Shown: piece after piece, positions 4,419-58,206 of the stretch
Layout: each line of letters opens with the position of its first letter
Position numbering within the stretch: position 1 is the stretch's first letter
From: Chryseolinea sp.
GTDB lineage: Bacteria; Bacteroidota; Bacteroidia; Cytophagales; Cyclobacteriaceae
Reading direction: 5' to 3'
Assembly (NCBI GenBank): GCA_035489615.1
Contig: DATHKA010000522.1
Location: 2,420-66,419, forward strand
Length of the DNA stretch: 64,000 bases
Program-made: the position numbers and the translations under genes
The notes under the pieces: model-generated
Databases searched by the model: none
What the model saw: only the letters and a program-made list of their open reading frames with translations
What the model was told of the DNA's origin: nothing

Positions 4419-5639
4419 ATGAGTAACTGGCTAGACGTCGCACCATGCGGTTATTTATCATTCAAGGATGACGGATCGATCATATATTTGAATCAAACCT
4501 TATCAGGATGGCTTGGATATAGCACAGCCGAACTGCTGGGCACAAAGGTGGAGCATATTTTTACCGTGGCTACGCGAATCTTCCACAATACGCACTTTTT
4601 TCCCCTGCTGAAATTGCATGCAAAAGCCGAAGAGATTTTCTTATCACTTCGTGCAAAAAATGAAGACAATATTCCCGTATTGGCTAGCGCAGAAAGACGT
4701 GTGGAGGATGGCATGGCTATCAACCATTGCGTCTTCATCGCAATATTTCAACGCCAGAAGTATGAAGAAGAAATTCTAGCTGCCAGACGTGAAGCAGAAA
4801 AGGCGTTGAAGGAAAACAAATACCTTGAAGAACTAAGGAACTCGCTGGAAATACACACGCTGGAATTGGAACAACAATATCAGAAACAGCTGGTTCAACA
4901 TAAAAATCTAACGCAATTCAACAAGATTGTCTCACATGATTTACAGGAACCGATTCGTAAAATATTGCTATTTTCTGACATACTGATCAATGATTTGGGC
5001 GCCACCCTTAACGAGAAAAATTTAACAACCATCTCAAGGATCAAAGACGCCTCGACGAGGTTGAGGGGACTCACAACCGGATTACAGCAATACCTCACGG
5101 TTGACGCTGATCAAATGGATACGGATGTAGATCTCAATGCTGTTCTGGAAACGGCAAAAAAGAGAGTCATTGATGGCCGGCACCTGCAGGAATTGGACCT
5201 GGTTTACAAAAAAATGCCAGTGATTCGTGGTTATCGGGCGCAACTTGAATTGCTGTTTTACCATCTGTTTGACAATGCCGTTCAATTTGCTGATCCGATT
5301 CGATCCTTGCGGATTAACATCACTTGGGTATTAAGCGACGAGAATATTTACAAGATGGAAAAGAATAAATACTTGTTCGTCGAGCACCTTCGATTGACTG
5401 TATCTGACAATGGGATAGGTTTTGAAAATGAGTATAAGGAATACGTAACCGGACTTTTGAATAAGCTTAACCCATCCACAGAGGGCTTAGGTATTGGTTT
5501 ATCTATCATTACAAAGGTCATAGATAATCACAGTGGCACTTTGTACATCGAATCGAAGAGAAATACGGGTACGTCGTTTTCCCTGCTGATCCCAACAAAG
5601 ATTCATAGCCGGCCAGACCGCACGGGCAGTGCGTCGTAG
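4419..5639 (+). CDS. PAS-domain sensor histidine kinase
   Basis: N-terminal RsbP-like PAS (APCGYL..D.G.I...N.TL..WLGY), H-box SHDLQEPIRK, N-box DNA, G1 DNGIG, G2 GLGIGL. Start abuts the rsbQ stop (TGA ATG). Confidence 0.92.
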   Translation: MSNWLDVAPCGYLSFKDDGSIIYLNQTLSGWLGYSTAELLGTKVEHIFTVATRIFHNTHFFPLLKLHAKAEEIFLSLRAKNEDNIPVLASAERRVEDGMAINHCVFIAIFQRQKYEEEILAARREAEKALKENKYLEELRNSLEIHTLELEQQYQKQLVQHKNLTQFNKIVSHDLQEPIRKILLFSDILINDLGATLNEKNLTTISRIKDASTRLRGLTTGLQQYLTVDADQMDTDVDLNAVLETAKKRVIDGRHLQELDLVYKKMPVIRGYRAQLELLFYHLFDNAVQFADPIRSLRINITWVLSDENIYKMEKNKYLFVEHLRLTVSDNGIGFENEYKEYVTGLLNKLNPSTEGLGIGLSIITKVIDNHSGTLYIESKRNTGTSFSLLIPTKIHSRPDRTGSAS

Positions 5640-6382
5640 AAGTGCCAGTCCACTCTACCGGACCTGGTGGTTTAGCACTGAAATTATCCAGTACCGGGTT
5701 CATGAACTCATGGCGCTGTTCGAGAATGGCAAAGTATGGATCATGAGAGAGCAAATAATTCAACAAAAGCTTGTATTTAATTCAAACTTGCGGCATTTTA
5801 AGTCGCTTAACGTTAACTGTCACTGTTGTATGATCCGGGTCAATCGTAATTCGTTCTATGTCATTTTTCTGATCGTTTCCGGGCCCATTTTTTTGGTGAT
5901 CTTGTTAGGGACGCTCGCTGTTCGATGGGCGATAGGTCGGATTCGAAATCTTCCTGTTTTTCGGCGGGAAATTGATTATGGTGCTAATTCAAGAAAATAG
6001 TTCTGCGCTTTGTTATCCCTATCCACGGGTGGAGTAGGGCATGTTTATGAAATTGAATATTTACTATTTTTTGGTATTGCCTAACTAATTAGTGCTACTT
6101 CTATGTCAAGCTAAGTTTGGTGTGTTCGCTTTGAGTTGGGATAGGGCAACGAATGTGAGCCAAAAGAAATCCATTTATCGCTGACGCCCGTAGATTTTGA
6201 TTGGGCGCCGTCAATCCCCGCCCACACGATGACTTGAAGTAGGATTAGTAACTGGCATGCGTGCAGCAGATATCTATATTACGGGACGCTGTTCATACGC
6301 AGGGCATGAAGACCGCTTCCGAACGAGGAGGTTCAAAACCCTATTGTCACGTTTGTTCGAGGGGAAATTTGAACATTACCAG

Positions 6383-6847
6383 TCAGACAGCGCGACCGTC
6401 GCATATATTTATCATTCCATAAATCGTCAGGGATAGTACAACGTGCCCCAGGGCGATTACCAATAGGTAAACGTGCAATTCGACTGGTGGAGGTCCAGGA
6501 TGAATATGAAAAAATAGACGCCAACCGATCACCGCCACAACGCCAATCAGTACTCCATAAAAAAGGCTTCCAATAAGCAGAGATTCTGCCTTTCCTGTCA
6601 CCAAGCCATGGAAGCCGAAGGTGAATATAATTCCAATGGCATAGTGAATGAAATTTGCGATCAATACCATTGACCTGGGGGGCACTGATCTCAAATTGGT
6701 CGCACGGTTAAATAAGAGCATATTCCCAAGGATTCTAACAACGTGATATGGCCGCTTAATGATTGCGAATACAGACTCAGTGAATAGGGTCATAGCCAGC
6801 GTTGAAAGAATGCCAATAGGTAAATTTTCAATCATCATCCTGGCCAT
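6383..6847 (-). CDS. Hypothetical 4-TM membrane protein (DUF2938-like)
   Basis: 154 aa with four hydrophobic segments and an HYAIGIIF motif; family recalled only. Confidence 0.6.
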   Translation of the reverse strand: MARMMIENLPIGILSTLAMTLFTESVFAIIKRPYHVVRILGNMLLFNRATNLRSVPPRSMVLIANFIHYAIGIIFTFGFHGLVTGKAESLLIGSLFYGVLIGVVAVIGWRLFFHIHPGPPPVELHVYLLVIALGHVVLSLTIYGMINICDGRAV

Positions 6848-7285
6848 AGATTTGTATTTTCCGATTCAAAACATTGCCTGAGCAAAATTTCTAAGAGTCC
6901 GAGCGGTTTTCCAGCATTTCCCGACATGTCAACCGCGGCTTCGAGTAATTGGTCACGACAATTGAACCCAATAAGGTGCCAAAATCATGGCACTGTGATC
7001 TGGCCTCCCCTGGAATAACACACAATGACCGCGGTGCGACAGGTACGGAAAAGACTGAGTTCATTTTCTTCAGACAGACTCAGAAACGAAAGGCCGGCGT
7101 GCCCATATTTAAAAATCGTGATGTCCACAACTGAACACTTTGATTTGGGCTGTGCAGCAAATGACCGAATTTATGGCCTACAGAGACTTGGCATCATTGT
7201 TAATACACCTGGGCCGCCGAGTCGATCATCGTTATAAGGCCTGGCAATTTGCTCAACCTATCTCAAGCAATTACAACGCCCTGCC

Positions 7286-9709
7286 ATGTTCAAGCGCTAT
7301 TTCAAAATCGGATGGAGAAACCAGATGAAACACAAGGGTCTGTTTGCCATTAATATTGGTGGGCTCGCCCTTGGCATAGCCACCTGCCTCGTTATTTCGC
7401 TTTTCGTGGTGGACGAACTAAGTTATGATCGATACAATGAGCACGCAGATCGAATCGTCCGTGTGGTGCTGAAGGGAAGGGTAAACGGTGAGACGATCAA
7501 AGAGGCCATCACGCCGGCGCCTGTGGCGCCCACCCTGAAAGCTGAATTTCCGGAGGTGGAGGAAGGCACCCGTATTCGCCGTGTGGGCAGACCGAAGATT
7601 GCTTATGAAAACACAACGTTTCGAACCAGTGAGGTAGCGTTTGTAGATCCAAATTTCTTTAGGGTTTTCTCGTTGCATTTTATCCAGGGCGATCCTATGA
7701 TCGCGCTGAAAAATCCGGGCAGTATCGTTATCACAGAAAGTGACGCCAAAAAATATTTTGGCAACGAAGATCCCCTGAACAAGGTGCTAGATTTTAAAGA
7801 CGCGAAAGAACAGTATAAGATTACCGGCGTGATCGAAGACGTGCCCACCAATTCCCATTTTCATTTCGACTTGTTCGCCTCCATGGAAGGAATGGAAGAT
7901 GCAAAAAATACCAACTGGATGGCTTCCAACTATTTTAACTACCTACTGCTGCGCGACGGCGCCAGCTATAAGACGTTGGAGTCAAAGCTGCCGGCAATTG
8001 TCACAAAGTATATGGGCCCCCAGGTCGAACAGATGGGGATGACCTACGAGAAATTCAAACAAAACGGAAATGAGGTTGGGCTGTTCTTCCAACCGATCAC
8101 TGACATTCACCTGCACTCGGAATTCACCAGCCAAACCGAGATGGAAGCCGGCGGAAATATTAAGGACGTCTTCATCTTCGCGGCCGTGGCGATATTCATG
8201 TTGCTGATCGCCTGTGTAAATTTTATGAACCTTTCCACTGCTGCGGCGAGCAGGCGAAATAAGGAAATTGGTGTGAGGAAAGTGTTGGGCTCGCAGCGCA
8301 GGCAATTGGTTCAACAGTTTATTGCTGAATCGTTTATTACCACCGCTGTTGCCATGATTGTGGCGGTGCTGTTGGTCGACCTCTCGGCGCCCGTCTTTAA
8401 TCGCCTCGCAGGTAAACAGCTGGATCCAATGTTCTTGTTTAACCCACAGGTCCTCATAGTGCTGGGCATATTCACACTTGTAGTGACACTCCTCGCGGGC
8501 AGCTATCCTGCCTTCCTGCTCTCTTCCCTCAGACCTATTACAGCGCTCAAAAATGGAATAACGGGCACCGCACGAAGCAAAACCATCCGAAGTGCGCTCG
8601 TAGTATTCCAGTTTGTAATATCGGCAGCGTTGATTCTTTCGATCATTATTGTTGACCAGCAGCTTGACTACATACAACACAAGGCGCTGGGCTACGAACG
8701 AGATCAATTGCTTGTACTCCGCGACAGCTACCTCCTGGGGAATAACGAAAATGCCTTTAAGAATCAGCTTGCTGCTGATCCGCGCGTGGCTGGTCTCTCC
8801 ATGTCTGCATATTTACCTGCCGGCTCGACCCATAATAGCATGACCGGTGTATATCCCGGTCAACAAAAAGAAGCCATTCGAAGAACAATTTTGTTCAATG
8901 TAGATGACCAGTACATCACCACGATGGGCATGCGTTTAACCACAGGAAGAAATTTTTCTGGGATACCGGCAAATGATTCACTTAATGTTATAATCAATGA
9001 GACTGCCGTGAAAGCTTTCGAACTCGGCGATCAGGCCGTGGGCCGACAATTAACCGGTAATGTTGGTCCGGAGGGTGCTGCTCGTACGCTGACCGTGATT
9101 GGTGTAGTTAAGGACTTTCATTTTCGTTCGCTCCACGAACCAATCGCTCCGCTCATCATGCTGAACAATCCTTTTGGTGGGTTAATCATTCGCGCAAAGT
9201 CGGAAGATATGCCTAATCTATTATCGACGATCGAGACTAAATGGAAGTCTTTTGGTGCCGGAGAGCCCCTCTCATTCGGCTTGTTAAATGAATTGTATGC
9301 TGAGACCTATGTTGCAGAACAGAAGACCGGAAACATCATGCGGATTTTTGGTGCCCTGACAATCCTCGTCGCTTGTCTCGGCCTTTTCGGATTGGTCACG
9401 TTCACGGCGGAACAAAGGGTAAAAGAAATAGGCATACGAAAAGTACTCGGTGCCGATGTGACCGAAATCGTGGCGCTTCTATCGAGGGACTTGTTGGTGC
9501 TTGTCGTCATATCATTCTTCATCGCCTTTCCATTGGGCTACTATGTGATGAACATATGGCTCGAAGACTTTGTTTACAGAGTCGATATAGAATGGTGGGT
9601 GTTCGGACTTACAGGTGTGAGTACCTTGTTCGTAGCATTTTGCACCATGACGCTAAAGACCGTGAAGGCTGGACTGGCCAATCCAATAAAGTCGTTGCGA
9701 ATGGAGTAG
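7286..9709 (+). CDS. ABC transporter permease (MacB/FtsX duplicated)
   Basis: 807 aa; ACVNFMNLSTA, KEIGVRKVLGS, EQRVKEIGIRKVLGA; ends NPIKSLRME. Confidence 0.93.
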   Translation: MFKRYFKIGWRNQMKHKGLFAINIGGLALGIATCLVISLFVVDELSYDRYNEHADRIVRVVLKGRVNGETIKEAITPAPVAPTLKAEFPEVEEGTRIRRVGRPKIAYENTTFRTSEVAFVDPNFFRVFSLHFIQGDPMIALKNPGSIVITESDAKKYFGNEDPLNKVLDFKDAKEQYKITGVIEDVPTNSHFHFDLFASMEGMEDAKNTNWMASNYFNYLLLRDGASYKTLESKLPAIVTKYMGPQVEQMGMTYEKFKQNGNEVGLFFQPITDIHLHSEFTSQTEMEAGGNIKDVFIFAAVAIFMLLIACVNFMNLSTAAASRRNKEIGVRKVLGSQRRQLVQQFIAESFITTAVAMIVAVLLVDLSAPVFNRLAGKQLDPMFLFNPQVLIVLGIFTLVVTLLAGSYPAFLLSSLRPITALKNGITGTARSKTIRSALVVFQFVISAALILSIIIVDQQLDYIQHKALGYERDQLLVLRDSYLLGNNENAFKNQLAADPRVAGLSMSAYLPAGSTHNSMTGVYPGQQKEAIRRTILFNVDDQYITTMGMRLTTGRNFSGIPANDSLNVIINETAVKAFELGDQAVGRQLTGNVGPEGAARTLTVIGVVKDFHFRSLHEPIAPLIMLNNPFGGLIIRAKSEDMPNLLSTIETKWKSFGAGEPLSFGLLNELYAETYVAEQKTGNIMRIFGALTILVACLGLFGLVTFTAEQRVKEIGIRKVLGADVTEIVALLSRDLLVLVVISFFIAFPLGYYVMNIWLEDFVYRVDIEWWVFGLTGVSTLFVAFCTMTLKTVKAGLANPIKSLRME

Positions 9710-49600: not shown

Positions 49601-52600
49601 ATGTTGAGACCGATACTTTTACCTGTTTTTCTTTTTCTCACCTGTTTCAATCTTTCAGCACAGCAGACCTGCGGCGCCGATGAGGTTTATCGTAAAATGA
49701 TGCAGGATCCGGATTATAGATTAAAGTACGATCAGTTCAAAACCGTTACGCGCAATGCAGTAGTCGGGCGCAGAAACGTGCGAATTCAGTCAAACAGCAC
49801 CGTTTATTCTATTCCCATTGTATTCCACATCATGCATAAGGGCGAACCGCTGGGTTCTGGTGTTAATCTCACGGATGAAACAATCGTTGCTGTGGTGAAA
49901 GGGATGAATGAACGGTACAGAAAAATTCCAGGAAGCATCGGTGATGGCCATTCGGTCGATATGCAGTTCCAGTTTGTGCTTGCTGTACAAGATCCGGACG
50001 GCAATTGCACCAATGGCATCAATCGTGTCGACATGAGCAGCTACCAGGATTATATGGACTATGGCACGGCAGGCCCTTTGAGCGTTCCCTTGGGCATGGA
50101 GGATGCCGATGTAAGAGCGCTCAGTTCCTGGGACTCCCATTATTATTGTAACGTGTGGATTGTATCTGATATTTATGGATACGCCGGCTATGCGTTTTAT
50201 CCCGATCAGCACGGCAATCCATGGGATGGAGTAATGATCAAGTCCGATGTGGTCGGTGATGCCGCTTCGCCTGCATTGACACATGAACTGGGACACTATA
50301 TCGGCCTCCGCCATGTTTTCGAGGGTGGAGACACAGAGAACTGTCCTGTCAATAACGATTGCGCCATTGATGGCGATGGCGTATGCGACACCCCTCCCCA
50401 ACTTCTGTCTGCGCCCTGTGAGCCTACGCCGAATTCTTGCGCGCCGGGAGAAATTCTTGAAGCGGTTAACTACATGGGTTACTCCTGCATGAATGAATTT
50501 ACAGAGGGACAAAAAGAGCTGGCCAGGAATGCCTTTGAGATTTACCGCAGTTCGTTGCTGGAAGAAAACGGAAATCTCGCGCTCGTTCCCGTCGGGACGC
50601 CTGCACCCGATTTTACTCTGGTGACAGTGCCAGGCGCTTGCATGATCGCGGGAGATAAAATTCAACTGTTCGACCACACGCTTTGCATTCCCAACACACT
50701 CGTCAATTCATGGGAAGGCTCTGGCGTTGCATTCAGTTGGATAATGACAAACAACGATGGAGCCACCCTGACATCAACCGACCAAAATCCTGCTTTCGCC
50801 ATACCGGCAGAGGGTAGTTACGATGTAACCCTGACGGTCACTTCATCGCTGGGAACGAACTCAGTGACCCAACAGGATTTCGTAATAGCAGGCCCGGCAC
50901 CTGCACCCGATTTTACGCTGGCAACAAGCACTTGCATGGTCGCGGGAGCTGAAATTCAACTGCTCAACAGTACGCCTTGCCTTCCGAATATCAATGTATC
51001 CTTTGACTGGACGATCACAGACAACCATGGCGTAACCCTGACATCAACCGATCAGAATCCTGCCTTCACGATTCCAGTGCAGGGTAGTTATGATGTAACC
51101 CTGGCAGTCACCACATCGATAGGAACAAACTCAGTTACCAAACAGGATTTCGTAATAGCGAGTGCGGGACCGGCACCTGATTTTACGCTGACGATAGCGC
51201 CTGGCACTTCCCTAACTGCAGGATCTGAAATTCAATTGATCAATGGTACGCCCTGCCTTCCTAACACCAACGTTTCTTTCAACTGGACCATCACCAACAA
51301 CCATGGCGTAACCCGGACATCAACCGATCAGAATCCTGCGTTCACCCTTCCAGTGACTGGTAATTACGATGTGACCCTGGCAATTACCACACCGCAGGGA
51401 ACAAACTCTATTACCAAACAGGATTTTATAGTGGTAGGAGAAATACCACAGGCACCGAGCTGTGTTGCCCAGACAGCCGACCCGGTCGATTACCAGTACC
51501 GCGGTGACGATATCGGAATCCGTGAAGTAATATTGAATGACCTGGACCATCTTTCAGGAACTACAATACAAGATGCAGCAGGGGGTGTGACCAACGCTAA
51601 TGGGTATGGTGATTTCAGTGGCAGCCAGATGGCGAACCTCGAGCCATTTACGGAATACACCATCAGTGTTGTACTGAGCGATGTTAATCCTGAAAACGTT
51701 CACGTTTACATCGACTTTGATAATAATGGAATCACCGAAGATGACCTCGTGACCTTTGCCTATAATATTCCGGCAGGCTCAGGAACGTACGCGCTTCCTT
51801 CTTTTGCATCGCCAGACTTTCCCGTTTACAATACCCGGTTACGCATGCGGGTTGTCGATGAGGATATCTACAGTCCATATCCGGAGACTTGTGGTGTACC
51901 CGTCTATGGACAGGCTCAGGATTATAGCGTCATTTTCAATAATTCATTCCCTGTAGCAAACGATGACGCGGCAACCGTCAATGAGGACGAAATGGTTGTC
52001 ATCGATGTAGCAGATAACGACTCGGACGCAGATGGGACGCTTTTGGCCGGGTCAGTGGACATGGATTTCTCTACTCCTCTCAATCAAGGTGCAAAATCGA
52101 CTCCGGAAGGAGCTTGGCTGTACGTTCAGGGAAATAGAGTTTCATTCAAGCCCATACCAGATTTCAATGGTACGGCTACGCTGGAATATACCGTCACTGA
52201 TGACAAGTACATAGTGTCTAATCCGGCCACAATAACCGTAACTGTAACCCCGGTGAATGATCTGCCCTCGTTCACAAAAGGAGCAGATCAATTTGTGAAC
52301 GAAGGTTCCGGTCCGCAGCTTGTGAATGGCTGGGCAACAGTGCTATCGTCAGGGCCACCGGATGAGGCATTGCAGGAATTGACCTTCTCTCTCTCCAACG
52401 ACAACAACGCATTGTTTGCCGTTCAGCCTTCCATCGACGCCAACGGAGACCTCACGTACACTTCTGCGAATAACACTTCCGGTTCAGCCATCGTAAGCGT
52501 TGTATTGAGTGATAATGGAGGAACAGCTAACGGCGGTGTCAATACGTATACAACGCAAACATTTACGATCACAGTAGCAGAAATACCTCAGGCACCGAGC

Positions 52601-54277
52601 TGTGTTGCTCAGACAGCCGACCCGGTCGATTATCAGTACCGCGGTGACGATATCGGAATCCGTGAAGTGATATTGAATGACCTGGATCATCTTTCAGGAA
52701 GCACGGTGGAAGATGCAGCAGGGGGTGTGACCAACGCTAACGGGTACGGTGATTTCAGTGGCAGCCAGGTGGCGAACCTCGAGCCATTTACGGAATATAC
52801 CATCAGTGTTGTATTAAGCGATGTTACTCCTGAACACGTGTATGTTTATATCGACTTTGATAACAATGGGATCTCTGAAGATGACCTGGTGACCTCTGCC
52901 CATGACGTCCCGGCAGGCTCAGGAATGTATGCGCTTCCTTCTTTTATAACACCTGGCTTTCCCGTTTACAATACCCGGTTACGCATGCGGGTAGTCGATG
53001 AGGATATCAATAGTCCATATCCGGAGGCTTGTGGTGCACCTGTCTACGGACAGATCGAGGATTATAGTGTGATCTTCAACAATGTATTCCCTGTAGCGCT
53101 GGATGATGCCGTCGCCATCAATGAAGACCAAGTCATTGTCATCGATGTGACGAGTAACGATTCGGATCCCGATGGAACGATTCCCGCTGGGACGGTGGAC
53201 ATGGATTTCTCTATTCCTCTCAATCAGGGCACAAAATCGACTCCGGAAGGAGATTGGCTGTACGTTCAGGGAAACAAAGTTTCATTTACACCAAAACCAA
53301 ATTTCAATGGTGTTGCTACGCTGGAATATACGGTCCAGGACAATAGATACACAACGTCTAATCCTGCCACGATAATCGTAACCGTTAATGCCGTTAATGA
53401 TCCACCATCGTTCACGAAAAGAGCAGATCAAATTATAAATGAAGATTCCGGTCCGCAGCTTGTGAGCGGCTGGGCAACGGCGCTATCGACAGGTCCTTCG
53501 GATGAATCGTCACAGGAATTGACATTCACCGTTATGAATGATAACCATCTCTTGTTCATTGTTCAGCCCTCGATCGACGCAAACGGAGACCTCACGTACG
53601 CTTCTGCTGATAACGCCTCCGGTTCAGCAACAGTAAGCGTTGTATTGAGTGACAATGGCGGGACAGCCAACGGCGGAATAAATACCTACGCAACCCAGAC
53701 TTTTCTCATCACAGTTAATCCGGTGAACGATCCTCCGGTAGTCGTGAACTACTCCATCACGACTATGCAAGGCACTCCTGTTTCCGGGAATTTCTCTGCC
53801 GGAGACAGTGATCCCGATGGCTCGATCAATTATGAAACAACTCCGGTATCCGGTCCTGACCATGGCATGATCGTAGTTCATGCAGATGGAACGTTTATCT
53901 ATACACCGGATGAAACATTCGCAGGAACGGAAGTGATCATTATCGAAGTATGTGATGACGGTACACCCTCTTCGTGCACACCAAAAACATTGACCATTAC
54001 TGTAGAGCCGCAGGAAATCACGGGTATAGAATCTACTGAACTCGCATCGGTATCGGTTTATCCGAATCCTTCTACCGGAACATTCATACTGCGTGTTTCG
54101 CCCGCCCTGCGCGGAAGCACGATCAAAGTATCCGATCTGGTTGGTAAGATCATTCATGAATCCAGGATCGATTACGACGAAAAATCCATCGACCTTTCAG
54201 AATATGCCAAGGGGATATACCTGTTGCAGGTCGAGAGAACGGATAGAAGATTCGTGTCGCGGATCACCTTGAAGTAA
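49601..54277 (+). CDS. T9SS-secreted M43 (pappalysin/ulilysin) zinc metalloprotease with PKD, GEVED and Ig/cadherin-like domains
   Basis: Signal peptide, CGAD propeptide Cys, HELGHYIGLRH zinc motif, NYMGY Met-turn, GQ..DY GEVED ends, VYPNPS...KGIYLL type A CTD. Confidence 0.92.
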   Translation: MLRPILLPVFLFLTCFNLSAQQTCGADEVYRKMMQDPDYRLKYDQFKTVTRNAVVGRRNVRIQSNSTVYSIPIVFHIMHKGEPLGSGVNLTDETIVAVVKGMNERYRKIPGSIGDGHSVDMQFQFVLAVQDPDGNCTNGINRVDMSSYQDYMDYGTAGPLSVPLGMEDADVRALSSWDSHYYCNVWIVSDIYGYAGYAFYPDQHGNPWDGVMIKSDVVGDAASPALTHELGHYIGLRHVFEGGDTENCPVNNDCAIDGDGVCDTPPQLLSAPCEPTPNSCAPGEILEAVNYMGYSCMNEFTEGQKELARNAFEIYRSSLLEENGNLALVPVGTPAPDFTLVTVPGACMIAGDKIQLFDHTLCIPNTLVNSWEGSGVAFSWIMTNNDGATLTSTDQNPAFAIPAEGSYDVTLTVTSSLGTNSVTQQDFVIAGPAPAPDFTLATSTCMVAGAEIQLLNSTPCLPNINVSFDWTITDNHGVTLTSTDQNPAFTIPVQGSYDVTLAVTTSIGTNSVTKQDFVIASAGPAPDFTLTIAPGTSLTAGSEIQLINGTPCLPNTNVSFNWTITNNHGVTRTSTDQNPAFTLPVTGNYDVTLAITTPQGTNSITKQDFIVVGEIPQAPSCVAQTADPVDYQYRGDDIGIREVILNDLDHLSGTTIQDAAGGVTNANGYGDFSGSQMANLEPFTEYTISVVLSDVNPENVHVYIDFDNNGITEDDLVTFAYNIPAGSGTYALPSFASPDFPVYNTRLRMRVVDEDIYSPYPETCGVPVYGQAQDYSVIFNNSFPVANDDAATVNEDEMVVIDVADNDSDADGTLLAGSVDMDFSTPLNQGAKSTPEGAWLYVQGNRVSFKPIPDFNGTATLEYTVTDDKYIVSNPATITVTVTPVNDLPSFTKGADQFVNEGSGPQLVNGWATVLSSGPPDEALQELTFSLSNDNNALFAVQPSIDANGDLTYTSANNTSGSAIVSVVLSDNGGTANGGVNTYTTQTFTITVAEIPQAPSCVAQTADPVDYQYRGDDIGIREVILNDLDHLSGSTVEDAAGGVTNANGYGDFSGSQVANLEPFTEYTISVVLSDVTPEHVYVYIDFDNNGISEDDLVTSAHDVPAGSGMYALPSFITPGFPVYNTRLRMRVVDEDINSPYPEACGAPVYGQIEDYSVIFNNVFPVALDDAVAINEDQVIVIDVTSNDSDPDGTIPAGTVDMDFSIPLNQGTKSTPEGDWLYVQGNKVSFTPKPNFNGVATLEYTVQDNRYTTSNPATIIVTVNAVNDPPSFTKRADQIINEDSGPQLVSGWATALSTGPSDESSQELTFTVMNDNHLLFIVQPSIDANGDLTYASADNASGSATVSVVLSDNGGTANGGINTYATQTFLITVNPVNDPPVVVNYSITTMQGTPVSGNFSAGDSDPDGSINYETTPVSGPDHGMIVVHADGTFIYTPDETFAGTEVIIIEVCDDGTPSSCTPKTLTITVEPQEITGIESTELASVSVYPNPSTGTFILRVSPALRGSTIKVSDLVGKIIHESRIDYDEKSIDLSEYAKGIYLLQVERTDRRFVSRITLK
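50600..51439 (+). repeat. Three tandem PKD-like domain repeats
   Basis: Units start at about 50600, 50900 and 51170: PDFTL...TSTDQNPAF..P..G.YDVTL..T...GTNS.T.QDF. Confidence 0.85.
51440..53719 (+). repeat. 1140-nt (380-aa) tandem intragenic duplication
   Basis: Units start GAAATACC(A/T)CAGGCACCGAGCTGTGTTGC at 51440 and 52580; each unit is GEVED plus two Ig-like domains. Confidence 0.92.
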
Positions 54278-54408: not shown

Positions 54409-54906
54409 ATGTTAAAAAAGATACCCAAACGATTAAAATTAAGTGCGGTACTCTTGCTGGGAGTAGGTCTCAGGCTACAGGCACAAAACACAATTCCTGC
54501 AAGTGGAGGTAATGCTTTGGGTAGCGGAGGTACTGCGAGTTATTCCATAGGGCAGATGGTTTATACCACCAACACATCCGTTTCAAACGGTTCGGTAACA
54601 CAAGGTGTACAGCAACCGTACGGAATCTCGGTAGTAACAGAATTGGAAGAAGCCAAGGGCATCAACCTTACGGTTTCGACTTATCCCAACCCTACGACCG
54701 ATTACCTTACATTGAGTATTGATAATTTTGAAGCTTCGAAATTGTCATATCAGCTACTTGACATAAACGGAAGACTTTTAGAAACAAAAAAAATTGACGG
54801 CAATCAAACCATTATTGTTACGAGCAATCTTATGCCCGCAATGTACTTTTTAAAAGTAACCGAGAGCAACGGGAAAGTAAAGACATTTAAAATCATTAAG
54901 AATTGA
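54409..54906 (+). CDS. Small T9SS type A sorting-domain protein
   Basis: ASGGNA.GSGG..SYSIGQ..Y, GVQQPY, YPNPTTD..YFLKV..KTFKIIKN. Confidence 0.85.
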   Translation: MLKKIPKRLKLSAVLLLGVGLRLQAQNTIPASGGNALGSGGTASYSIGQMVYTTNTSVSNGSVTQGVQQPYGISVVTELEEAKGINLTVSTYPNPTTDYLTLSIDNFEASKLSYQLLDINGRLLETKKIDGNQTIIVTSNLMPAMYFLKVTESNGKVKTFKIIKN

Positions 54907-54919
54907 AGGCGAATAAATA

Positions 54920-55921
54920 ATGAGAAAGATATTTACAATTATATCAACCGTATTACTAACGGCAACAGTGTGGGCACAAGCACCACAAAAAATGAGTTAT
55001 CAGGCAGTAATACGAAATAGCAGTGATGTTTTGATAACAAACATTCAAATTGGTATGCAAATAAACATTCGCCAGGACTCACCAACCGGAACTGTCGTTT
55101 ATACCGAAACCCAGACACCAACAACCAATGCAAATGGTTTGGTAAGTGTTGAAATAGGTGGCGGAACAAATTTTAGTGCTATTGACTGGGGAAGCGATAC
55201 GTATTATATCGAAACTAAAACCGCAGTAGTTGCACCTTTGACAACTTACACCATTACAGGAGTAAGCCAGTTATTAAGCGTACCTTATGCATTACATGCA
55301 AAAACAGCTGATAGCATTACCGGCGGAATTACCGACACCAAAGTAACCCAGGGTACCAACATAACCATAACAGGCAACGGAACAACAGCAACCCCTTATG
55401 TCATTAGCAGCAGTGGTTTTACCCATTACGTAGGCGAACTCTATGGCGGTGGTATTGTGGTATCGGTATGGAAGCAAGGGGCTGCGGAACATGGTTTAAT
55501 TGCCTCATTAGCAGATTTAAGTGCTGGTATAATATGGACACCAGCAGCGTATCAATCAACGATGGTTCCTGCTGGTTCATTAAGCCCAATGGATGGTTTG
55601 GCAAATTCAAATGCAATTGTTGCACAGGCTGGTGCCGGAACTACTTATGCGGCCGGTTTGTGCAGGGCATATGGTGCTGCCGGCGATGGTGTTCTTAACG
55701 ATTGGTACTTGCCATCAACGTGGGAATTAAACCAATGTTATAATGCTGCATATGCCGTAAACACAATTTTAGGTGCTACGAATGGCTTTCAGTTTGTGGA
55801 TTACTGGAGTTCAACCGAGCTCAACACCGGCTACGCGTGGAGTATGTATTTCTACAACGGCGACCAGGGCTATGCCAGTAAGGGCAGTAGCTATAGGGTT
55901 CGTGCAGTCAGGAGATTTTAG
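54920..55921 (+). CDS. Secreted DUF1566 (Lcl C-terminal/C-type-lectin fold) protein; putative DGR target
   Basis: QAPQKMSYQAVIRN and SVPYALHA N-terminal motifs; C-terminal GGIV..HGLI, DWYLPS..EL, YWSSTE..AW..F..G..VRAVR. Confidence 0.85.
   Translation: MRKIFTIISTVLLTATVWAQAPQKMSYQAVIRNSSDVLITNIQIGMQINIRQDSPTGTVVYTETQTPTTNANGLVSVEIGGGTNFSAIDWGSDTYYIETKTAVVAPLTTYTITGVSQLLSVPYALHAKTADSITGGITDTKVTQGTNITITGNGTTATPYVISSSGFTHYVGELYGGGIVVSVWKQGAAEHGLIASLADLSAGIIWTPAAYQSTMVPAGSLSPMDGLANSNAIVAQAGAGTTYAAGLCRAYGAAGDGVLNDWYLPSTWELNQCYNAAYAVNTILGATNGFQFVDYWSSTELNTGYAWSMYFYNGDQGYASKGSSYRVRAVRRF
55802..55921 (+). other. DGR variable-region-like segment
   Basis: All 18 codons at the Asn-run positions of YWSSTE-x5-AW-x-M-x-F-xx-G-x-Q-x4-K-x4-RVRAVR end in C or T, as expected for codons derived from AAC/AAT. 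Confidence 0.65.
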
Positions 55922-55936
55922 CTATTTCATGCCTGC

Positions 55937-55951
55937 GCAGGAGCCTCCTGC
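55937..55951. terminator. GC-rich hairpin between convergent genes (terminator and/or DGR target stem-loop)
   Basis: GCAGGA-GCC-TCCTGC, beginning 16 nt after the stop codon. Confidence 0.55.
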
Positions 55952-55959
55952 CGGGTCTG

Positions 55960-58206
55960 TTAGTTGAACACTATTTTCTGTGTGAGAATTTCCCCGTCCG
56001 ACTCAATGACCAGTAGATAGAGGCTTTTTTTAACACCCGGAATTTCTACCTGTGTTTCCCCGTTCCCGGAATGTTGATAGATTATTTTACCCACAGGGTC
56101 GGAAATCATTATCTGGTATTCACCGACATGAGTCGGCACACGGACAATGAATTTTTCAGTGGCTGGATTCGGGAAGACCGAGACCCATTCTGAAGTCTCT
56201 TCCTTCACGCCTGTTATCCCGGATGCAACAACCGCAATTTCGCGTGATGAAGACGTGCAGCCATGATTACCGAGCTCAAGTCTGTATACCCCATCTTGTC
56301 TCACCGTGAGAGAGTTTGTTGTTTCGTCCGTGATCGGGTTGTTGTCGTGATACCATTGATACTTATCGGCAACGACAGGTGTCAACAGTATGTTGCCGGT
56401 TTGATTGACTGCGGTGTCGGGATAATTGTAAAAGGTAATGGCGACAGGGCTTGAAAAATCACTGACGCAACCATTGACATCCGTTACCTTTACCGAGTAA
56501 TCCCCTGAATCTTGAGCGTTGATCGTCTCTGTTGTTTCCCCGGTATTCCAGTGATACGCGGCAAATCCGGTTGGAGCAGCGATAGTGATCGATCCTCCGG
56601 TGCATCCTTCCGTAGAGGATGGCGGGGTCAGCACAGGAGCGTCCAGCGGCAAAGGTGTTACCTGGGTGACACTCGCGGGAACGGATTGGGTTCCGCGTCC
56701 GAGCGCGATGACCCGGAAATCGTAGGTCTCACTGCACACCAGATTTCCGGCCGTATAGGAAGTTACGTCAGCGTCAATTGTCTCCAATACGATATAGCTG
56801 CCGCCCTGTGATTTTTTATATTCGATCCGGTAGTTGTCTTCATCCGCTACATCATCCCATGTCAATGCAATGGAAGACGTGCTTGCGCCGATGCCTTCAA
56901 GATTTGAAGGCGCGACAGGTGTAGTAATCGTTTTGACTTTAAATGTCTGAATGGTAAAAATGAAGTGCGGCACCGCATCCATCAGCAGGATCTGCCCCGT
57001 TCGGGCATTCGGATGTACCGATACCGTAATTGCTCGGCTTGTCGTTGTAATTCCCGTGGTTACCGCCGGTGATCCTGAAAATTGAACTTTATCGATCGCT
57101 GATAAATTGACGCCCGTCAGGGTGATCATATCTCCGGGATAGGCTTCGGCCGGAACGATTCCGTTGGAAGCTACAGCGGGAATCCCCGCGTTCTTAATCC
57201 CTGCGCCGTTCAGTAAGGCTTTACTGCCCGGAAGCAGATCATAAAAATCAGTGAACAGTCCGTGATCACCGAGTGTACCCAGTAAGGGATCGATGGGAAC
57301 TGCTTCAGTGCCAACATAGTCATTATTGGCACTCGGTTGTCCCTGACGAAACGTTGGAAATGAAATCTGTGCGACCACCGGATACGATCCGATCAGGTTA
57401 CCTCCGTCCGTATACACGGCTCCACTCAGGTCGAACTCCTTACCGTTATCGGGAGAAGCGGGATTATCATAGGTGTTTTTCGCTACGATACAGTTCTTGA
57501 GATAAATGTTGTCTGTGGATGTGTTGGCGTTCACCGTAAAGACATTGTAGATAGCAGCTGGAAGATTGACATTCCAGCAGCTGTTATTAACAACCACACA
57601 GTTTTCCAGTGCCGTCGTTCCACTATAGGTATGGATCGCAGAACCCGTTCCCTGCGTGGCAACGTTATCCGTAAATGTACAATTCTTTGCCGTGAAGCCG
57701 TAGGTACTGCTGATAGCAACCGCTCCCCCCGATGGAGCCTGGTTACCTTTTAATAAACAATTGTAAAGTGCTACTCGCGCACCGCTGATCTTTATTGCAC
57801 CCCCGTCACCGTTTCCATTCGGAAGGGTGGATCCTCCTATGAGATTTGTATTGTAAAGAATAACATTGCAACCCGAAAAGTAGAGCAGTCGCAAAACAGC
57901 AATGGAGTTGTCGCGCATAAGCGTTGCTCCGTTTCCCAGGAACGTTAACGAATTTGCATCACTTCCATCCCGGTCAAATAACGGCAGGGCGTTGTCACCC
58001 AAAAAATTATTGTCAACCGTTGTAAACCGGTATGTCCCGAACGGCGCAAGATGAATTGTGTCAGGTTTGTTGTTGCTATTGGAGACGATAATTGCCGCCT
58101 TTAAGGCTGCTATATCTCCATTAGAAATATTGAACTGGTCTCCACGACAATAAAATACGCTTACCACCGCAAGCGACAACAGCAGCGCCTTCTTCAAATT
58201 TTTCAT
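55960..58206 (-). CDS. T9SS-secreted surface protein: beta-helix (choice-of-anchor Q-like), IPT/TIG, Fn3, Ig-like, CTD
   Basis: Signal peptide; GGAI/N..GGA beta-helix repeats, DPLLG.L..HG, Fn3 LTWDD..YRIEY..YDFRV.A, VFPNPA CTD. Confidence 0.82.
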   Translation of the reverse strand: MKNLKKALLLSLAVVSVFYCRGDQFNISNGDIAALKAAIIVSNSNNKPDTIHLAPFGTYRFTTVDNNFLGDNALPLFDRDGSDANSLTFLGNGATLMRDNSIAVLRLLYFSGCNVILYNTNLIGGSTLPNGNGDGGAIKISGARVALYNCLLKGNQAPSGGAVAISSTYGFTAKNCTFTDNVATQGTGSAIHTYSGTTALENCVVVNNSCWNVNLPAAIYNVFTVNANTSTDNIYLKNCIVAKNTYDNPASPDNGKEFDLSGAVYTDGGNLIGSYPVVAQISFPTFRQGQPSANNDYVGTEAVPIDPLLGTLGDHGLFTDFYDLLPGSKALLNGAGIKNAGIPAVASNGIVPAEAYPGDMITLTGVNLSAIDKVQFSGSPAVTTGITTTSRAITVSVHPNARTGQILLMDAVPHFIFTIQTFKVKTITTPVAPSNLEGIGASTSSIALTWDDVADEDNYRIEYKKSQGGSYIVLETIDADVTSYTAGNLVCSETYDFRVIALGRGTQSVPASVTQVTPLPLDAPVLTPPSSTEGCTGGSITIAAPTGFAAYHWNTGETTETINAQDSGDYSVKVTDVNGCVSDFSSPVAITFYNYPDTAVNQTGNILLTPVVADKYQWYHDNNPITDETTNSLTVRQDGVYRLELGNHGCTSSSREIAVVASGITGVKEETSEWVSVFPNPATEKFIVRVPTHVGEYQIMISDPVGKIIYQHSGNGETQVEIPGVKKSLYLLVIESDGEILTQKIVFN

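What the first reader, a model, noticed from the sequence alone, without database searches (positions are those of the whole stretch)
55790..55951. Orphan DGR variable region on a surface lectin-fold protein, with no template repeat or reverse transcriptase in the window
Seen: the last 40 codons are TAC TGG AGT TCA ACC GAG [CTC AAC ACC GGC TAC] GCG TGG [AGT] ATG [TAT] TTC [TAC AAC] GGC [GAC] CAG [GGC TAT GCC AGT] AAG [GGC AGT AGC TAT] AGG GTT CGT GCA GTC AGG. All 18 bracketed codons are NNC or NNT, in a gene otherwise rich in A/T-ending codons, and a GC hairpin starts 16 nt after the stop. Known: DGRs mutate adenines of AAC/AAT-rich templates into C-terminal CLec/DUF1566 variable regions and use a downstream stem-loop for target recognition. 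Inference: a trans (remote) DGR target, or a fossil of one, diversifying a chromosomal, probably T9SS-displayed adhesin.
Basis: partly seen in the sequence, partly recalled or inferred. Interest (0 to 1): 0.8.

Follow-up and report, generated by a model that had tools for sequence, protein, structure and literature searches.

The report
Fossil DGR variable region, cassette lost
The tip of this secreted lectin-like protein was once rewritten by a diversity-generating retroelement, but the rewriting machinery was not found in this genome and the tip has since evolved like ordinary coding DNA, so this is a frozen relic of a known system.

Summary
The gene at 54920-55921 (+) encodes a 333-aa secreted DUF1566/Lcl_C protein. 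Its last ~130 nt (55787-55917) have the codon footprint of a DGR variable region (VR).

The decisive evidence comes from relatives. Homologues 62-66% identical (loci L120, L121) carry an intact cassette directly downstream: target, bAvd, template repeat (TR), reverse transcriptase (RT). Against the L120 TR, our VR mismatches at 25 of 50 TR adenines but only 5 of 63 other sites (p = 8e-7).

The machinery was not found here:
- The 6.8-Mb, 99.4%-complete assembly has no TR-like copy, no Avd and no DGR-type RT. Its only RT is a type III-A retron RT.
- Similarity to DGR-bearing loci ends 9 nt after the stop codon.
- The lineage's conserved CCGCGAAGCGG hairpin is absent.

The closest relative, P0002 (85% identical, also without a cassette), shares most derived VR codons. 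It differs from ours in the ordinary way, mostly at third codon positions. So no rewriting has occurred since the two lineages split (dS about 0.33).

Cassette-less loci are the majority in this family: 38 of 45 sampled, and 16 of 18 such genomes have no matching RT anywhere.

Verdict: a fossil VR and an ordinary member of a known kind.

The parts
54409..54906 (+). 165-aa protein with a T9SS type A sorting domain; conserved upstream partner of the target gene (13-nt gap, likely one operon)
   Evidence: Pfam Por_Secre_tail E = 2.8e-13 and TIGR04183. The same 159-165-aa neighbour precedes the homologue in L011, L009, L095/L096 and L119-L122.
54920..55921 (+). 333-aa secreted DUF1566/Lcl_C protein, a former DGR target gene. 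It has an N-terminal signal peptide, a conserved N-terminal domain and a C-terminal lectin-like domain.
   Evidence: Pfam Lcl_C E = 3.1e-12 over residues 198-331. More than 7,900 homologues were found. The alignment shows the scaffold YWSSTExxxxxAWxQxFxxGxxxxxxKxxxYRVRAVRRF. The signal peptide is read from the sequence (MRKIFTIISTVLLTATVWA|QAP), not predicted by a tool.
55787..55917 (+). Variable-region equivalent: the 131 nt that align with the TR/VR pair of the DGR-bearing relatives L120 and L121
   Evidence: Over 113 nt against the L120 TR, mismatches fall at 25/50 TR adenines and 5/63 other sites, p = 8e-7. The only hit of that TR in the own genome is this stretch.
55820..55894 (+). The 25-codon hypervariable block (codons 301-325, LNTGYAWSMYFYNGDQGYASKGSSY)
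   Evidence: Codon statistics. The hypervariable columns are visible in the family alignment. AAY codons of the relatives' TRs fall where ours are NNY.
55919..55927 (+). Stop codon plus 6 nt (TAGCTATTT): the last stretch similar to DGR-bearing loci, and so the deletion or rearrangement boundary
   Evidence: Tails compared. L120, L121 and L119 continue TAACTATTT(T/A)TCAATTTAA...CCGCGAAGCGG and then avd. The own sequence diverges after TAGCTATTT.
55932..55955 (.). Imperfect GC hairpin (inner stem at 55937-55951) in the 38-nt gap between two convergent genes. It is not homologous to the DGR-lineage hairpin; its function is unknown, possibly a shared 3' end structure.
   Evidence: Fold (z = -1.8). 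Comparison of tails. No T-run, so not flagged as a terminator.
55960..58206 (-). Convergent 748-aa gene occupying the place where relatives carry avd-TR-RT. Its function was not tested here.
   Evidence: ORF list. The same arrangement, with a convergent 752-aa gene, is seen next to P0002.

Best explanation
This is a fossil DGR variable region. An ancestor of this gene sat directly upstream of an avd-TR-RT cassette, as in the related loci L120 and L121. That cassette copied an AAY-rich template into the last ~130 nt of the gene while misreading its adenines, which produced the NNY codons seen today.

The cassette was then deleted or replaced, with the boundary 9 nt after the stop codon. This removed avd, the TR, the RT and the downstream recognition hairpin. 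It happened before this lineage split from its nearest known relative, P0002. Since then the VR has been inherited vertically and has changed only by ordinary point mutation. Its amino-acid replacement rate is about 3-fold that of the rest of the gene, as expected for an exposed ligand-binding face.

The protein is presumably still made, as a secreted lectin-like binder with one fixed specificity, possibly working with its T9SS-sorted neighbour.

Shown: the family membership, the adenine-specific relation to relatives' TRs, the lack of any detectable machinery in the assembly, and the normal substitution pattern since the split. Inferred: the order of events, and that the protein is expressed and surface-associated.
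For: 1. The protein is an Lcl_C/DUF1566 domain protein.

2. Homologues are genuine DGR targets. TR/VR pairs with adenine-dominated mismatches lie next to Avd and an RT carrying the IGNLTSQ motif:
- L011: 22 of 23 mismatches at A.
- L120: 14 of 14. L121: 21 of 21.
- L072, L009 and L107 also carry TR/VR pairs.
- The L011 Avd matches NF033474.

3. Own VR against the L120 TR: mismatches at 25/50 A sites vs 5/63 non-A sites, p = 8e-7. Against the L121 TR: 25/50 vs 7/63.

4. The codon-position pattern against DGR-bearing P0008 is inverted. In the gene body, third-position identity is 0.61 and position 1+2 identity 0.85. In the VR plus tail these are 0.85 and 0.67.

5. No machinery was found in the own 6.8-Mb assembly (99.43% complete):
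- blastn and an adenine-tolerant scan find no second copy of the VR.
- PF00078 finds a single RT, which is a type III-A retron RT (E = 7.7e-134; QGAPTSP and VTG motifs).
- tblastn with the L011 and L120 RT and Avd finds nothing.
- The Avd HMM gives at best 25.6 bits against a cut-off of 80.
- No AAY-rich TR-like window exists anywhere: the maximum is 13 of 30 codons, in a stretch with no VR-like partner elsewhere in the genome.

6. The VR has been frozen since the split from P0002:
- The two share most derived variable codons (CTC, GGC, TAT, TAC, GCC and others).
- VR plus tail identity is 0.77 at third positions and 0.86 at positions 1+2, the same normal pattern as the gene body (0.82 and 0.91). 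Body dS is 0.33.

7. The nearest relatives P0002, P0003 and P0004 also lack a cassette, and P0002 and P0004 show the same synteny.

8. A decay series exists in the family:
- L119 keeps only the first 138 nt of the cassette, and its VR has 1/63 non-A mismatches.
- L005, L015, L038 and L006 keep only 5' fragments of avd.
- Non-A mismatches: own 5/63, P0003 8/63, P0002 9/63, L004 10/63.

9. The 90%-identity protein cluster has one member, and two other assemblies carry the identical DNA straight through the VR.
Against: - The assembly is fragmented (613 contigs, none under 2 kb). A ~2-kb cassette on a short or unbinned contig, plasmid or phage would be missed.
- The two extra assemblies with the identical sequence are 100% identical over 2.5-3.5 kb, so they may come from the same population and are not independent.
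- VR dN is 3-8 times that of the rest of the gene among the four closest relatives, with several two-base codon differences. Occasional old rewriting events in some branches, P0003 or P0004 for example, cannot be excluded.
- The cognate TR of this exact lineage was never seen. The inference rests on TRs from relatives 62-66% identical in protein.
Confidence: 0.8

Rival explanations
1. This is an active remote (trans) DGR target. A cassette elsewhere in the cell, on an unassembled contig, plasmid, ICE or prophage, still rewrites this VR.
For: - Remote targets are documented: 45 of 372 DGRs, some more than 100 kb from the RT (Wu et al. 2018, PMC5758913).
- The NNY/A-free footprint here is as sharp as in active VRs of relatives: NNY 0.80 here against 0.72-0.76, and A3 0 against 0.08.
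- The assembly is fragmented.
- One genome with a cassette-less homologue (G055, locus L004) does hold a DGR-type RT on another contig.
Against: - No TR, Avd or DGR RT was found in a 99.4%-complete assembly by five different searches.
- 38 of 40 genomes of the genus have no hit to this RT type, and the other two have only weak hits at 26-37% identity.
- The lineage-specific hairpin and everything beyond 9 nt after the stop are gone.
- The VR shares derived codons with P0002 and has accumulated third-position changes at the background rate, which one homing event would have erased.
- No VR variants exist in the protein collection.
- A pattern search for a cognate TR found none in viral contigs and only L011-type pairs in JGI metagenomes.
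- In G055 no TR matching L004 was found.
Confidence: 0.1
2. There is no DGR history at all. The NNY bias and hypervariability come only from the amino-acid composition (Tyr, Asn, Asp, Ser, Gly) and from diversifying selection on a lectin binding face.
For: - Another 25-codon window in the same gene reaches the same NNY count.
- Many of the codons (TAY, AAY, GAY) can only be NNY.
- Homologues in genomes with no RT at all still show some NNY excess: mean 0.69 against 0.54 in the gene body.
Against: - Composition cannot explain why mismatches to a foreign TR fall on its adenines (25/50 vs 5/63, p = 8e-7).
- It cannot explain why third positions are better conserved than first and second positions only in this stretch.
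- It cannot explain why synonymous sites of the scaffold codons match the TR.
- Direct homologues sit beside intact cassettes.
- The cassette-less loci form a gradient from pristine to eroded, which fits decay after loss.
Confidence: 0.04
3. The VR was imported ready-made. The gene, or only its 3' end, arrived by horizontal transfer or recombination from a DGR-bearing donor without the cassette, so this lineage never had a working DGR.
For: - The gene is absent from all 24 other genomes of the genus that were searched, so it is accessory.
- The VR scaffold is much closer to the TRs of distant hosts than the gene body is to their genes: third-position identity 0.85 against 0.61.
- Bacteroides DGRs are known to move on ICEs (bioRxiv 10.1101/2024.11.15.621889).
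Against: - There is no mobility gene or composition break at the locus in the region examined.
- The upstream partner gene and the gene body are co-linear with those of relatives.
- The outcome, a frozen VR with no machinery, is the same as in the main explanation. This rival differs only in where the cassette was lost.
Confidence: 0.06

Closest known systems
DGR target proteins of category 'd' (CLec2 variable regions overlapping DUF1566/DUF823/Fib_succ_major), exemplified by Legionella pneumophila LdtA (Wu et al. 2018, PMC5758913)
   Same: - A C-terminal DUF1566 lectin-like domain with the VR at the very C-terminus.
- The YWSSTE...AW...F..G......K....VRAVR scaffold.
- A secreted or surface location.
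- NNY codons derived from AAY template codons.
   Different: - No TR, Avd or RT was found in this genome, so the VR is frozen.
- It has a Sec signal peptide rather than a lipoprotein signal.
- It is paired with a small T9SS-sorted neighbour.
The Bacteroidia DGR loci L120 (GCA_009930305.1, RZYM01000018.1) and L121, the nearest intact cassettes found here
   Same: - The same two-gene front end: a 162-aa T9SS-domain protein followed by the DUF1566 target.
- Target proteins 62-66% identical to ours.
- The TR matches our VR at 58 of 63 non-adenine sites, including the ...TATAGNGTTCGTGCAGTCAGGANATT 3' end.
   Different: Those loci continue with the CCGCGAAGCGG hairpin, bAvd, the TR and an IGNLTSQ-type RT. 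Here the similarity stops 9 nt after the stop codon and a convergent 748-aa gene follows.
Remote (non-adjacent) DGR targets, e.g. the seven dispersed targets of the Treponema denticola DGR (TvpA family)
   Same: The VR-bearing gene lies far from any RT.
   Different: Remote targets have a TR in the same genome that differs only at adenines, and they keep their 3' recognition elements. Neither was found here.
Legionella collagen-like adhesin Lcl C-terminal domain (Pfam PF07603) and the solved structure 8Q4E/8QK8 'HbP1'
   Same: Sequence-level membership of the same domain family: Pfam E = 3e-12, and PDB 8q4e E = 1e-3 over residues 258-333, with the same YWSS.E...W...G...K..VRAVRAF end.
   Different: The domains upstream differ, and no link to a DGR was examined here for those proteins.

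Membership tests
DGR variable region (functional target of a diversity-generating retroelement) | VR lies at the C-terminus of a C-type-lectin-like (here DUF1566/CLec2) domain with the conserved scaffold | tested here: met
   Pfam Lcl_C E = 3.1e-12. The scaffold and hypervariable columns are seen in the alignment.
DGR variable region (functional target of a diversity-generating retroelement) | A cognate TR in the same genome that differs from the VR (almost) only at TR adenines | tested here: not met
   - blastn with word size 7.
- An adenine-tolerant ungapped scan of both strands, whose best non-self window has 35 non-A mismatches in 132 nt.
- The TR of L120 against the genome hits only the VR itself.
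- A scan for AAY-rich windows finds no TR-like stretch.
DGR variable region (functional target of a diversity-generating retroelement) | A DGR-clade reverse transcriptase (I/LGxxxSQ motif) in the genome | tested here: not met
   PF00078 finds one RT (C61), a type III-A retron RT with QGAPTSP. tblastn with two DGR RTs gives nothing better than E = 0.19.
DGR variable region (functional target of a diversity-generating retroelement) | Accessory protein Avd (or equivalent) next to the TR | tested here: not met
   NF033474 gives at best 25.6 bits against a cut-off of 80, on C350, with no RT or TR found anywhere in the genome. tblastn with two Avd proteins gives nothing.
DGR variable region (functional target of a diversity-generating retroelement) | 3' recognition elements: the IMH at the VR end and the downstream GC hairpin/cruciform conserved in the lineage | tested here: not met
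   The VR 3' end (GTTCGTGCAGTCAGGAGATT) is retained. The lineage hairpin CCGCGAAGCGG, about 32 nt after the stop, is absent, and similarity ends 9 nt after the stop. The own hairpin has an unrelated sequence. Whether that hairpin could substitute functionally is not testable here.
DGR variable region (functional target of a diversity-generating retroelement) | Adenine-specific relation to a template (historic signature) | tested here: met
   Against the TRs of relatives: 25/50 A sites vs 5/63 non-A sites mismatched, p = 8e-7 (L120), and 25/50 vs 7/63 (L121). Third positions are better conserved than positions 1+2 in the VR only.
DGR variable region (functional target of a diversity-generating retroelement) | Ongoing hypervariation within the population | not testable with these tools
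Indirect evidence points against it: a one-member 90% cluster, identical DNA in two other assemblies, and a normal substitution pattern against P0002.
Lcl_C / DUF1566 domain family (PF07603) | Score above the Pfam gathering threshold | tested here: met
   47.3 bits against a cut-off of 34.9, residues 198-331.
T9SS cargo protein | C-terminal T9SS sorting domain (Por_Secre_tail / TIGR04183) on the protein itself | tested here: not met
   Only Lcl_C was found on the 333-aa protein, and its C-terminus is the VR. The sorting domain is on the upstream 165-aa neighbour.

The most novel reading that the evidence does not exclude
Cassette-less VRs of this Bacteroidota family may not be dead ends. They could be standing landing pads that are occasionally rewritten 'hit-and-run' by mobile DGR cassettes carrying a highly conserved TR.

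The hint is that the TR and VR scaffold is 92-98% identical at non-adenine sites across hosts whose target proteins are only 56-66% identical and whose gene bodies have third-position identity of only about 0.6. That degree of conservation would be explained if the cassette spreads horizontally and services resident homologues in trans before being lost again.

This copy, however, lacks the lineage hairpin and shows no rewriting since its split from P0002.
Probability: 0.07. Interest if true: 0.6.

Novelty: new member of a known kind. Interest (0 to 1): 0.27.

Why it matters
For this genome it matters little. The gene should be annotated as a DUF1566 lectin-like secreted protein with a relic DGR variable region, not as part of an active hypermutation system.

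The family is more useful than this one locus:
- It offers a graded series, from intact cassette, to cassette truncated within avd with a pristine VR, to cassette gone with the VR drifting.
- Mismatches at non-adenine template sites act as a rough clock since the last rewriting.
- 38 of 45 sampled loci lack a local TR/RT, and 16 of 18 such genomes lack any matching RT. Surveys that start from the RT therefore see only a minority of genes shaped by DGRs.
- The three papers checked here do not use terms such as 'orphan', 'vestigial' or 'decay' for VRs. This scan's own notes list many similar cassette-less VRs, so the phenomenon appears common rather than surprising.

Tried and rejected
- Structure: the AlphaFold2 model of the whole protein from a 20-sequence alignment was poor (mean pLDDT 45, pTM 0.36). 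I ran no fold search and draw no structural claim from it.
- Search for a cognate TR elsewhere: a degenerate pattern built on the VR scaffold found nothing in viral contigs. In JGI metagenomes it found only three L011-type loci, one of them a TR/VR pair. Records of the window's own sample may have been left out of that search.
- Trans-targeting in relatives: G055 (the genome of L004) has a DGR-type RT at a contig end. REP-like hairpin repeats and a transposase-like ORF lie upstream of it instead of a TR. The only other match to L004's VR in that genome is a second VR of a paralogue, not a TR. This stayed unresolved.
- The genomes holding L119, L122 and L095 could not be searched because they are not held. 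Whether P0007's nearly pristine cassette-less VR is served from elsewhere in its genome is therefore unknown.
- The weak tblastn hit of the L011 RT on C569 (E = 0.19) was not pursued. PF00078 did not flag it.
- The AAY-rich window on C419 (13 of 30 codons) has no VR-like partner anywhere in the genome.
- The hairpin as a DGR recognition element was rejected because its sequence is unrelated to the lineage hairpin and similarity breaks upstream of it. It was not confirmed as an intrinsic terminator either, since it has no T-run.
Full report
**What is there.** The stretch 55790-55951 covers the 3' end of an ORF at 54920-55921 (+) of 333 aa, and the 38-nt gap to a convergent 748-aa ORF at 55960-58206 (-).
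- The protein has a Sec-type signal peptide (MRKIFTIISTVLLTATVWA|QAP), read from the sequence.
- It has a conserved N-terminal domain with a sub-threshold match to the N-terminus of Bdellovibrio mosaic adhesive trimer fibres (NF053851, E = 4e-12).
- It has a C-terminal Lcl_C/DUF1566 domain (PF07603, 47.3 bits against a cut-off of 34.9, residues 198-331).
- Thirteen nucleotides upstream ends a 165-aa protein with a T9SS sorting domain.
- The target protein itself has no such domain.

**Check of the observation.** The quoted codons are exact. I compared the 25-codon block 55820-55894 with the other 308 codons of the gene.
- NNY codons: 20/25 vs 159/308 (p = 0.006).
- C-ending codons: 14/25 vs 57/308 (p = 8e-5).
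- A-ending codons: 0/25 vs 105/308 (p = 7e-5).

Another window of the same gene reaches the same NNY count, so NNY alone is weak. The C-rich, A-free third position is stronger. The hairpin exists (inner stem 55937-55951) but is barely better than shuffled sequence (z = -1.8) and has no T-run.

**No machinery found in this genome.** The window lies in a 6.83-Mb assembly of 613 contigs, estimated 99.43% complete.
- A sensitive blastn of 55700-55960 finds only itself.
- An ungapped scan of both strands that forgives every mismatch where the genome base is A finds no template. The best non-self window has 35 non-A mismatches in 132 nt.
- PF00078 finds one RT, on contig C61. It has QGAPTSP and VTG motifs and scores E = 7.7e-134 to type III-A retron RTs, so it is not a DGR RT.
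- tblastn with the RT and Avd of two related DGRs finds nothing.
- The Avd HMM gives at best 25.6 bits against a cut-off of 80.
- A generic scan for AAY-rich windows finds nothing TR-like.
- In 40 genomes of the genus, 38 have no hit to this RT type and two have only weak hits at 26-37% identity.
- The gene itself is absent from the 24 other genomes of the genus that were searched, so it is an accessory gene.

**Relatives show what the stretch is.** The protein has more than 7,900 homologues. In an alignment of 20 of them almost every column is conserved until YWSSTE. After that only a scaffold survives: xxxxxAWxQxFxxGxxxxxxKxxxYRVRAVRRF.

Among 80 loci from species genomes, four carry TR/VR pairs with adenine-dominated mismatches just downstream of the homologue. 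The layout is T9SS-domain protein, target, Avd, TR, then an RT with the IGNLTSQ motif. The AAY codons of those TRs fall where our codons are NNY.

The closest cassette-bearing relatives are P0008 (66% identical; locus L120, GCA_009930305.1) and P0010 (62% identical; L121). Their own VR/TR mismatches are 14/14 and 21/21 at adenines.

Over 113 nt, our VR mismatches the L120 TR at 25 of 50 adenines and only 5 of 63 other positions (p = 8e-7). Against the L121 TR the figures are 25/50 and 7/63. Three of the five non-A mismatches to the L120 TR are at third codon positions.

The codon-position pattern is inverted exactly here. Between our gene and P0008, third-position identity is 0.61 and position 1+2 identity 0.85 in the gene body. 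In the VR and tail these are 0.85 and 0.67. This is the signature of copying from a conserved template with adenine misreading. Amino-acid composition cannot produce it.

**Why fossil rather than active.**
1. The machinery was not found (see above).
2. Similarity to cassette-bearing loci ends 9 nt after our stop (TAGCTATTT). L120, L121 and L119 continue with an AT-rich spacer, the hairpin CCGCGAAGCGG about 32 nt after the stop, and then avd. L011, L009 and L072 also carry a CCGC...GCGG hairpin, about 26-35 nt after the stop. Ours continues with unrelated sequence that holds a different hairpin and then the end of the convergent gene.
3. The nearest relatives P0002 (85% identical), P0003 and P0004 (82% each) also lack a cassette, and P0002 and P0004 show the same synteny.
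4. Ours and P0002 share most derived variable codons (CTC, GGC, TAT, TAC, GCC and others). They differ largely by C/T changes at third positions.
5. In the VR and tail, their third-position identity is 0.77 and position 1+2 identity 0.86. This is the normal coding pattern, matching the gene body at 0.82 and 0.91 with dS 0.33. A single homing event in either lineage would have reset third positions to the template and scrambled the rest.
6. The 90%-identity cluster of the protein has one member among about 15 billion sequences. Two other assemblies carry identical DNA straight through the VR, though they may come from the same population.

**The family shows a decay series.**
- L119 (P0007) keeps only the first 138 nt of the cassette, and its VR has 1/63 non-adenine mismatches to the L120 TR.
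- L005, L015, L038 and L006 keep only 5' fragments of avd.
- Non-adenine mismatches in other cassette-less VRs: ours 5/63, P0003 8/63, P0002 9/63, L004 10/63.
- Of 45 family loci with the C-terminal domain, 38 have no local TR/RT. Their NNY fraction runs from 0.88 down to 0.50, while the gene body mean is 0.54.
- Of 18 genomes holding such loci, several with very large contigs or complete chromosomes, 16 have no matching RT anywhere. One has an RT fragment with stop codons, and one has an RT on another contig with no matching TR found.

Cassette-less VRs are thus the rule in this family.

**Elevated replacement rate.** VR dN is 3-fold (against P0002) to 8-fold (P0002 against P0004) that of the rest of the gene. 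I read this as relaxed or diversifying selection on an exposed binding face. Older rewriting events on some branches cannot be excluded.

**Comparison with what is known.** DUF1566-type (CLec2, category 'd') VRs make up about 14% of catalogued DGRs, and remote targets are documented (Wu et al. 2018, PMC5758913). Large metagenome surveys start from the RT and do not detect separated targets (Roux et al. 2021, PMC8144416). Bacteroides DGRs move on ICEs (bioRxiv 10.1101/2024.11.15.621889). A frozen VR left behind after cassette loss follows naturally from that biology. This scan's own notes list many similar cases (unchecked AI notes, used only as context).

**Limits.**
- Read-level variation was not testable.
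- The assembly is fragmented.
- The structure model was too poor to use.
- The cognate TR of this exact lineage was never seen.

**Verdict.** This is a new member of a known kind, of low to moderate interest.

Noticed in passing
own genome contig C61:175-1116 (locus L001), outside the window: A 313-aa reverse transcriptase that scores E = 7.7e-134 to PADLOC type III-A retron RTs and is just under the NCBIfam cut-off for retron St85 RT. It is the only RT in the assembly. A tRNA-like sequence lies downstream on the minus strand.
   Followed up: partly
window 54950-55174 (residues 11-85 of the 333-aa protein): The conserved N-terminal domain has a sub-threshold match (E = 4.4e-12, 46 bits against a cut-off of 60) to NF053851, the N-terminus of Bdellovibrio 'mosaic adhesive trimer' chimeric fibre proteins. 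This hints that the family may form fibres with exchangeable tips.
   Followed up: no
window 49601-54277 (+): A 1558-aa secreted protein with a zinc-metalloprotease-like motif (HELGHYIGLRH), read from the translation only. It carries a large internal duplication: about 750 nt at 51823-52575 are 80% identical to 52963-53715. Other assemblies break their contigs here rather than at the VR.
   Followed up: no
loci L119 (6922-7059), L005, L015, L038, L006: Homologous target genes followed by only the first 90-285 nt of the DGR cassette (hairpin plus the 5' part of avd), with the TR and RT deleted. These are independent examples of cassette truncation. L119's VR is still nearly pristine (1/63 non-adenine mismatches).
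   Followed up: partly
locus L009 11566-12711: The DGR RT next to this homologue is split into two ORFs (84 aa and 294 aa). This is either a frameshifted, decaying cassette or an assembly error. Its TR/VR pair shows 24 of 30 mismatches at adenines.
   Followed up: no
G042:C1:1412634-1412891 (locus L099; Patiriisocius sp. complete genome): A DGR-type RT fragment with two in-frame stop codons lies about 0.48 Mb from two adjacent cassette-less DUF1566 homologues (locus L048). It looks like a pseudogenised DGR in a closed genome.
   Followed up: no
G055:C141 (locus L100, 8130-10047): An intact-looking 400-aa DGR-type RT (IGNLTSQ motif) at a contig end. Several REP-like GC hairpin repeats and the end of a transposase-like ORF precede it in place of an Avd/TR. 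The same genome has two cassette-less RRF-type DUF1566 paralogues with different NNY-rich VRs.
   Followed up: partly
locus L031 (VR 4882-5067, RT 5699-6844, Avd 6856-7194, TR 7351-7536): A contig binned as Gammaproteobacteria carries the conserved N-terminal domain of this family fused to a different, longer VR. All 28 of its mismatches fall at TR adenines, and the cassette order is target-RT-Avd-TR. The N-terminal module is evidently combined with different diversified tips.
   Followed up: no
own genome C350:13682-13984 (locus L110): A 138-aa ORF with a weak match to the DGR Avd model (25.6 bits against a cut-off of 80). It is probably a generic four-helix-bundle protein. No RT or TR was found anywhere in the assembly; the flanks of this ORF were not examined individually.
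   Followed up: partly
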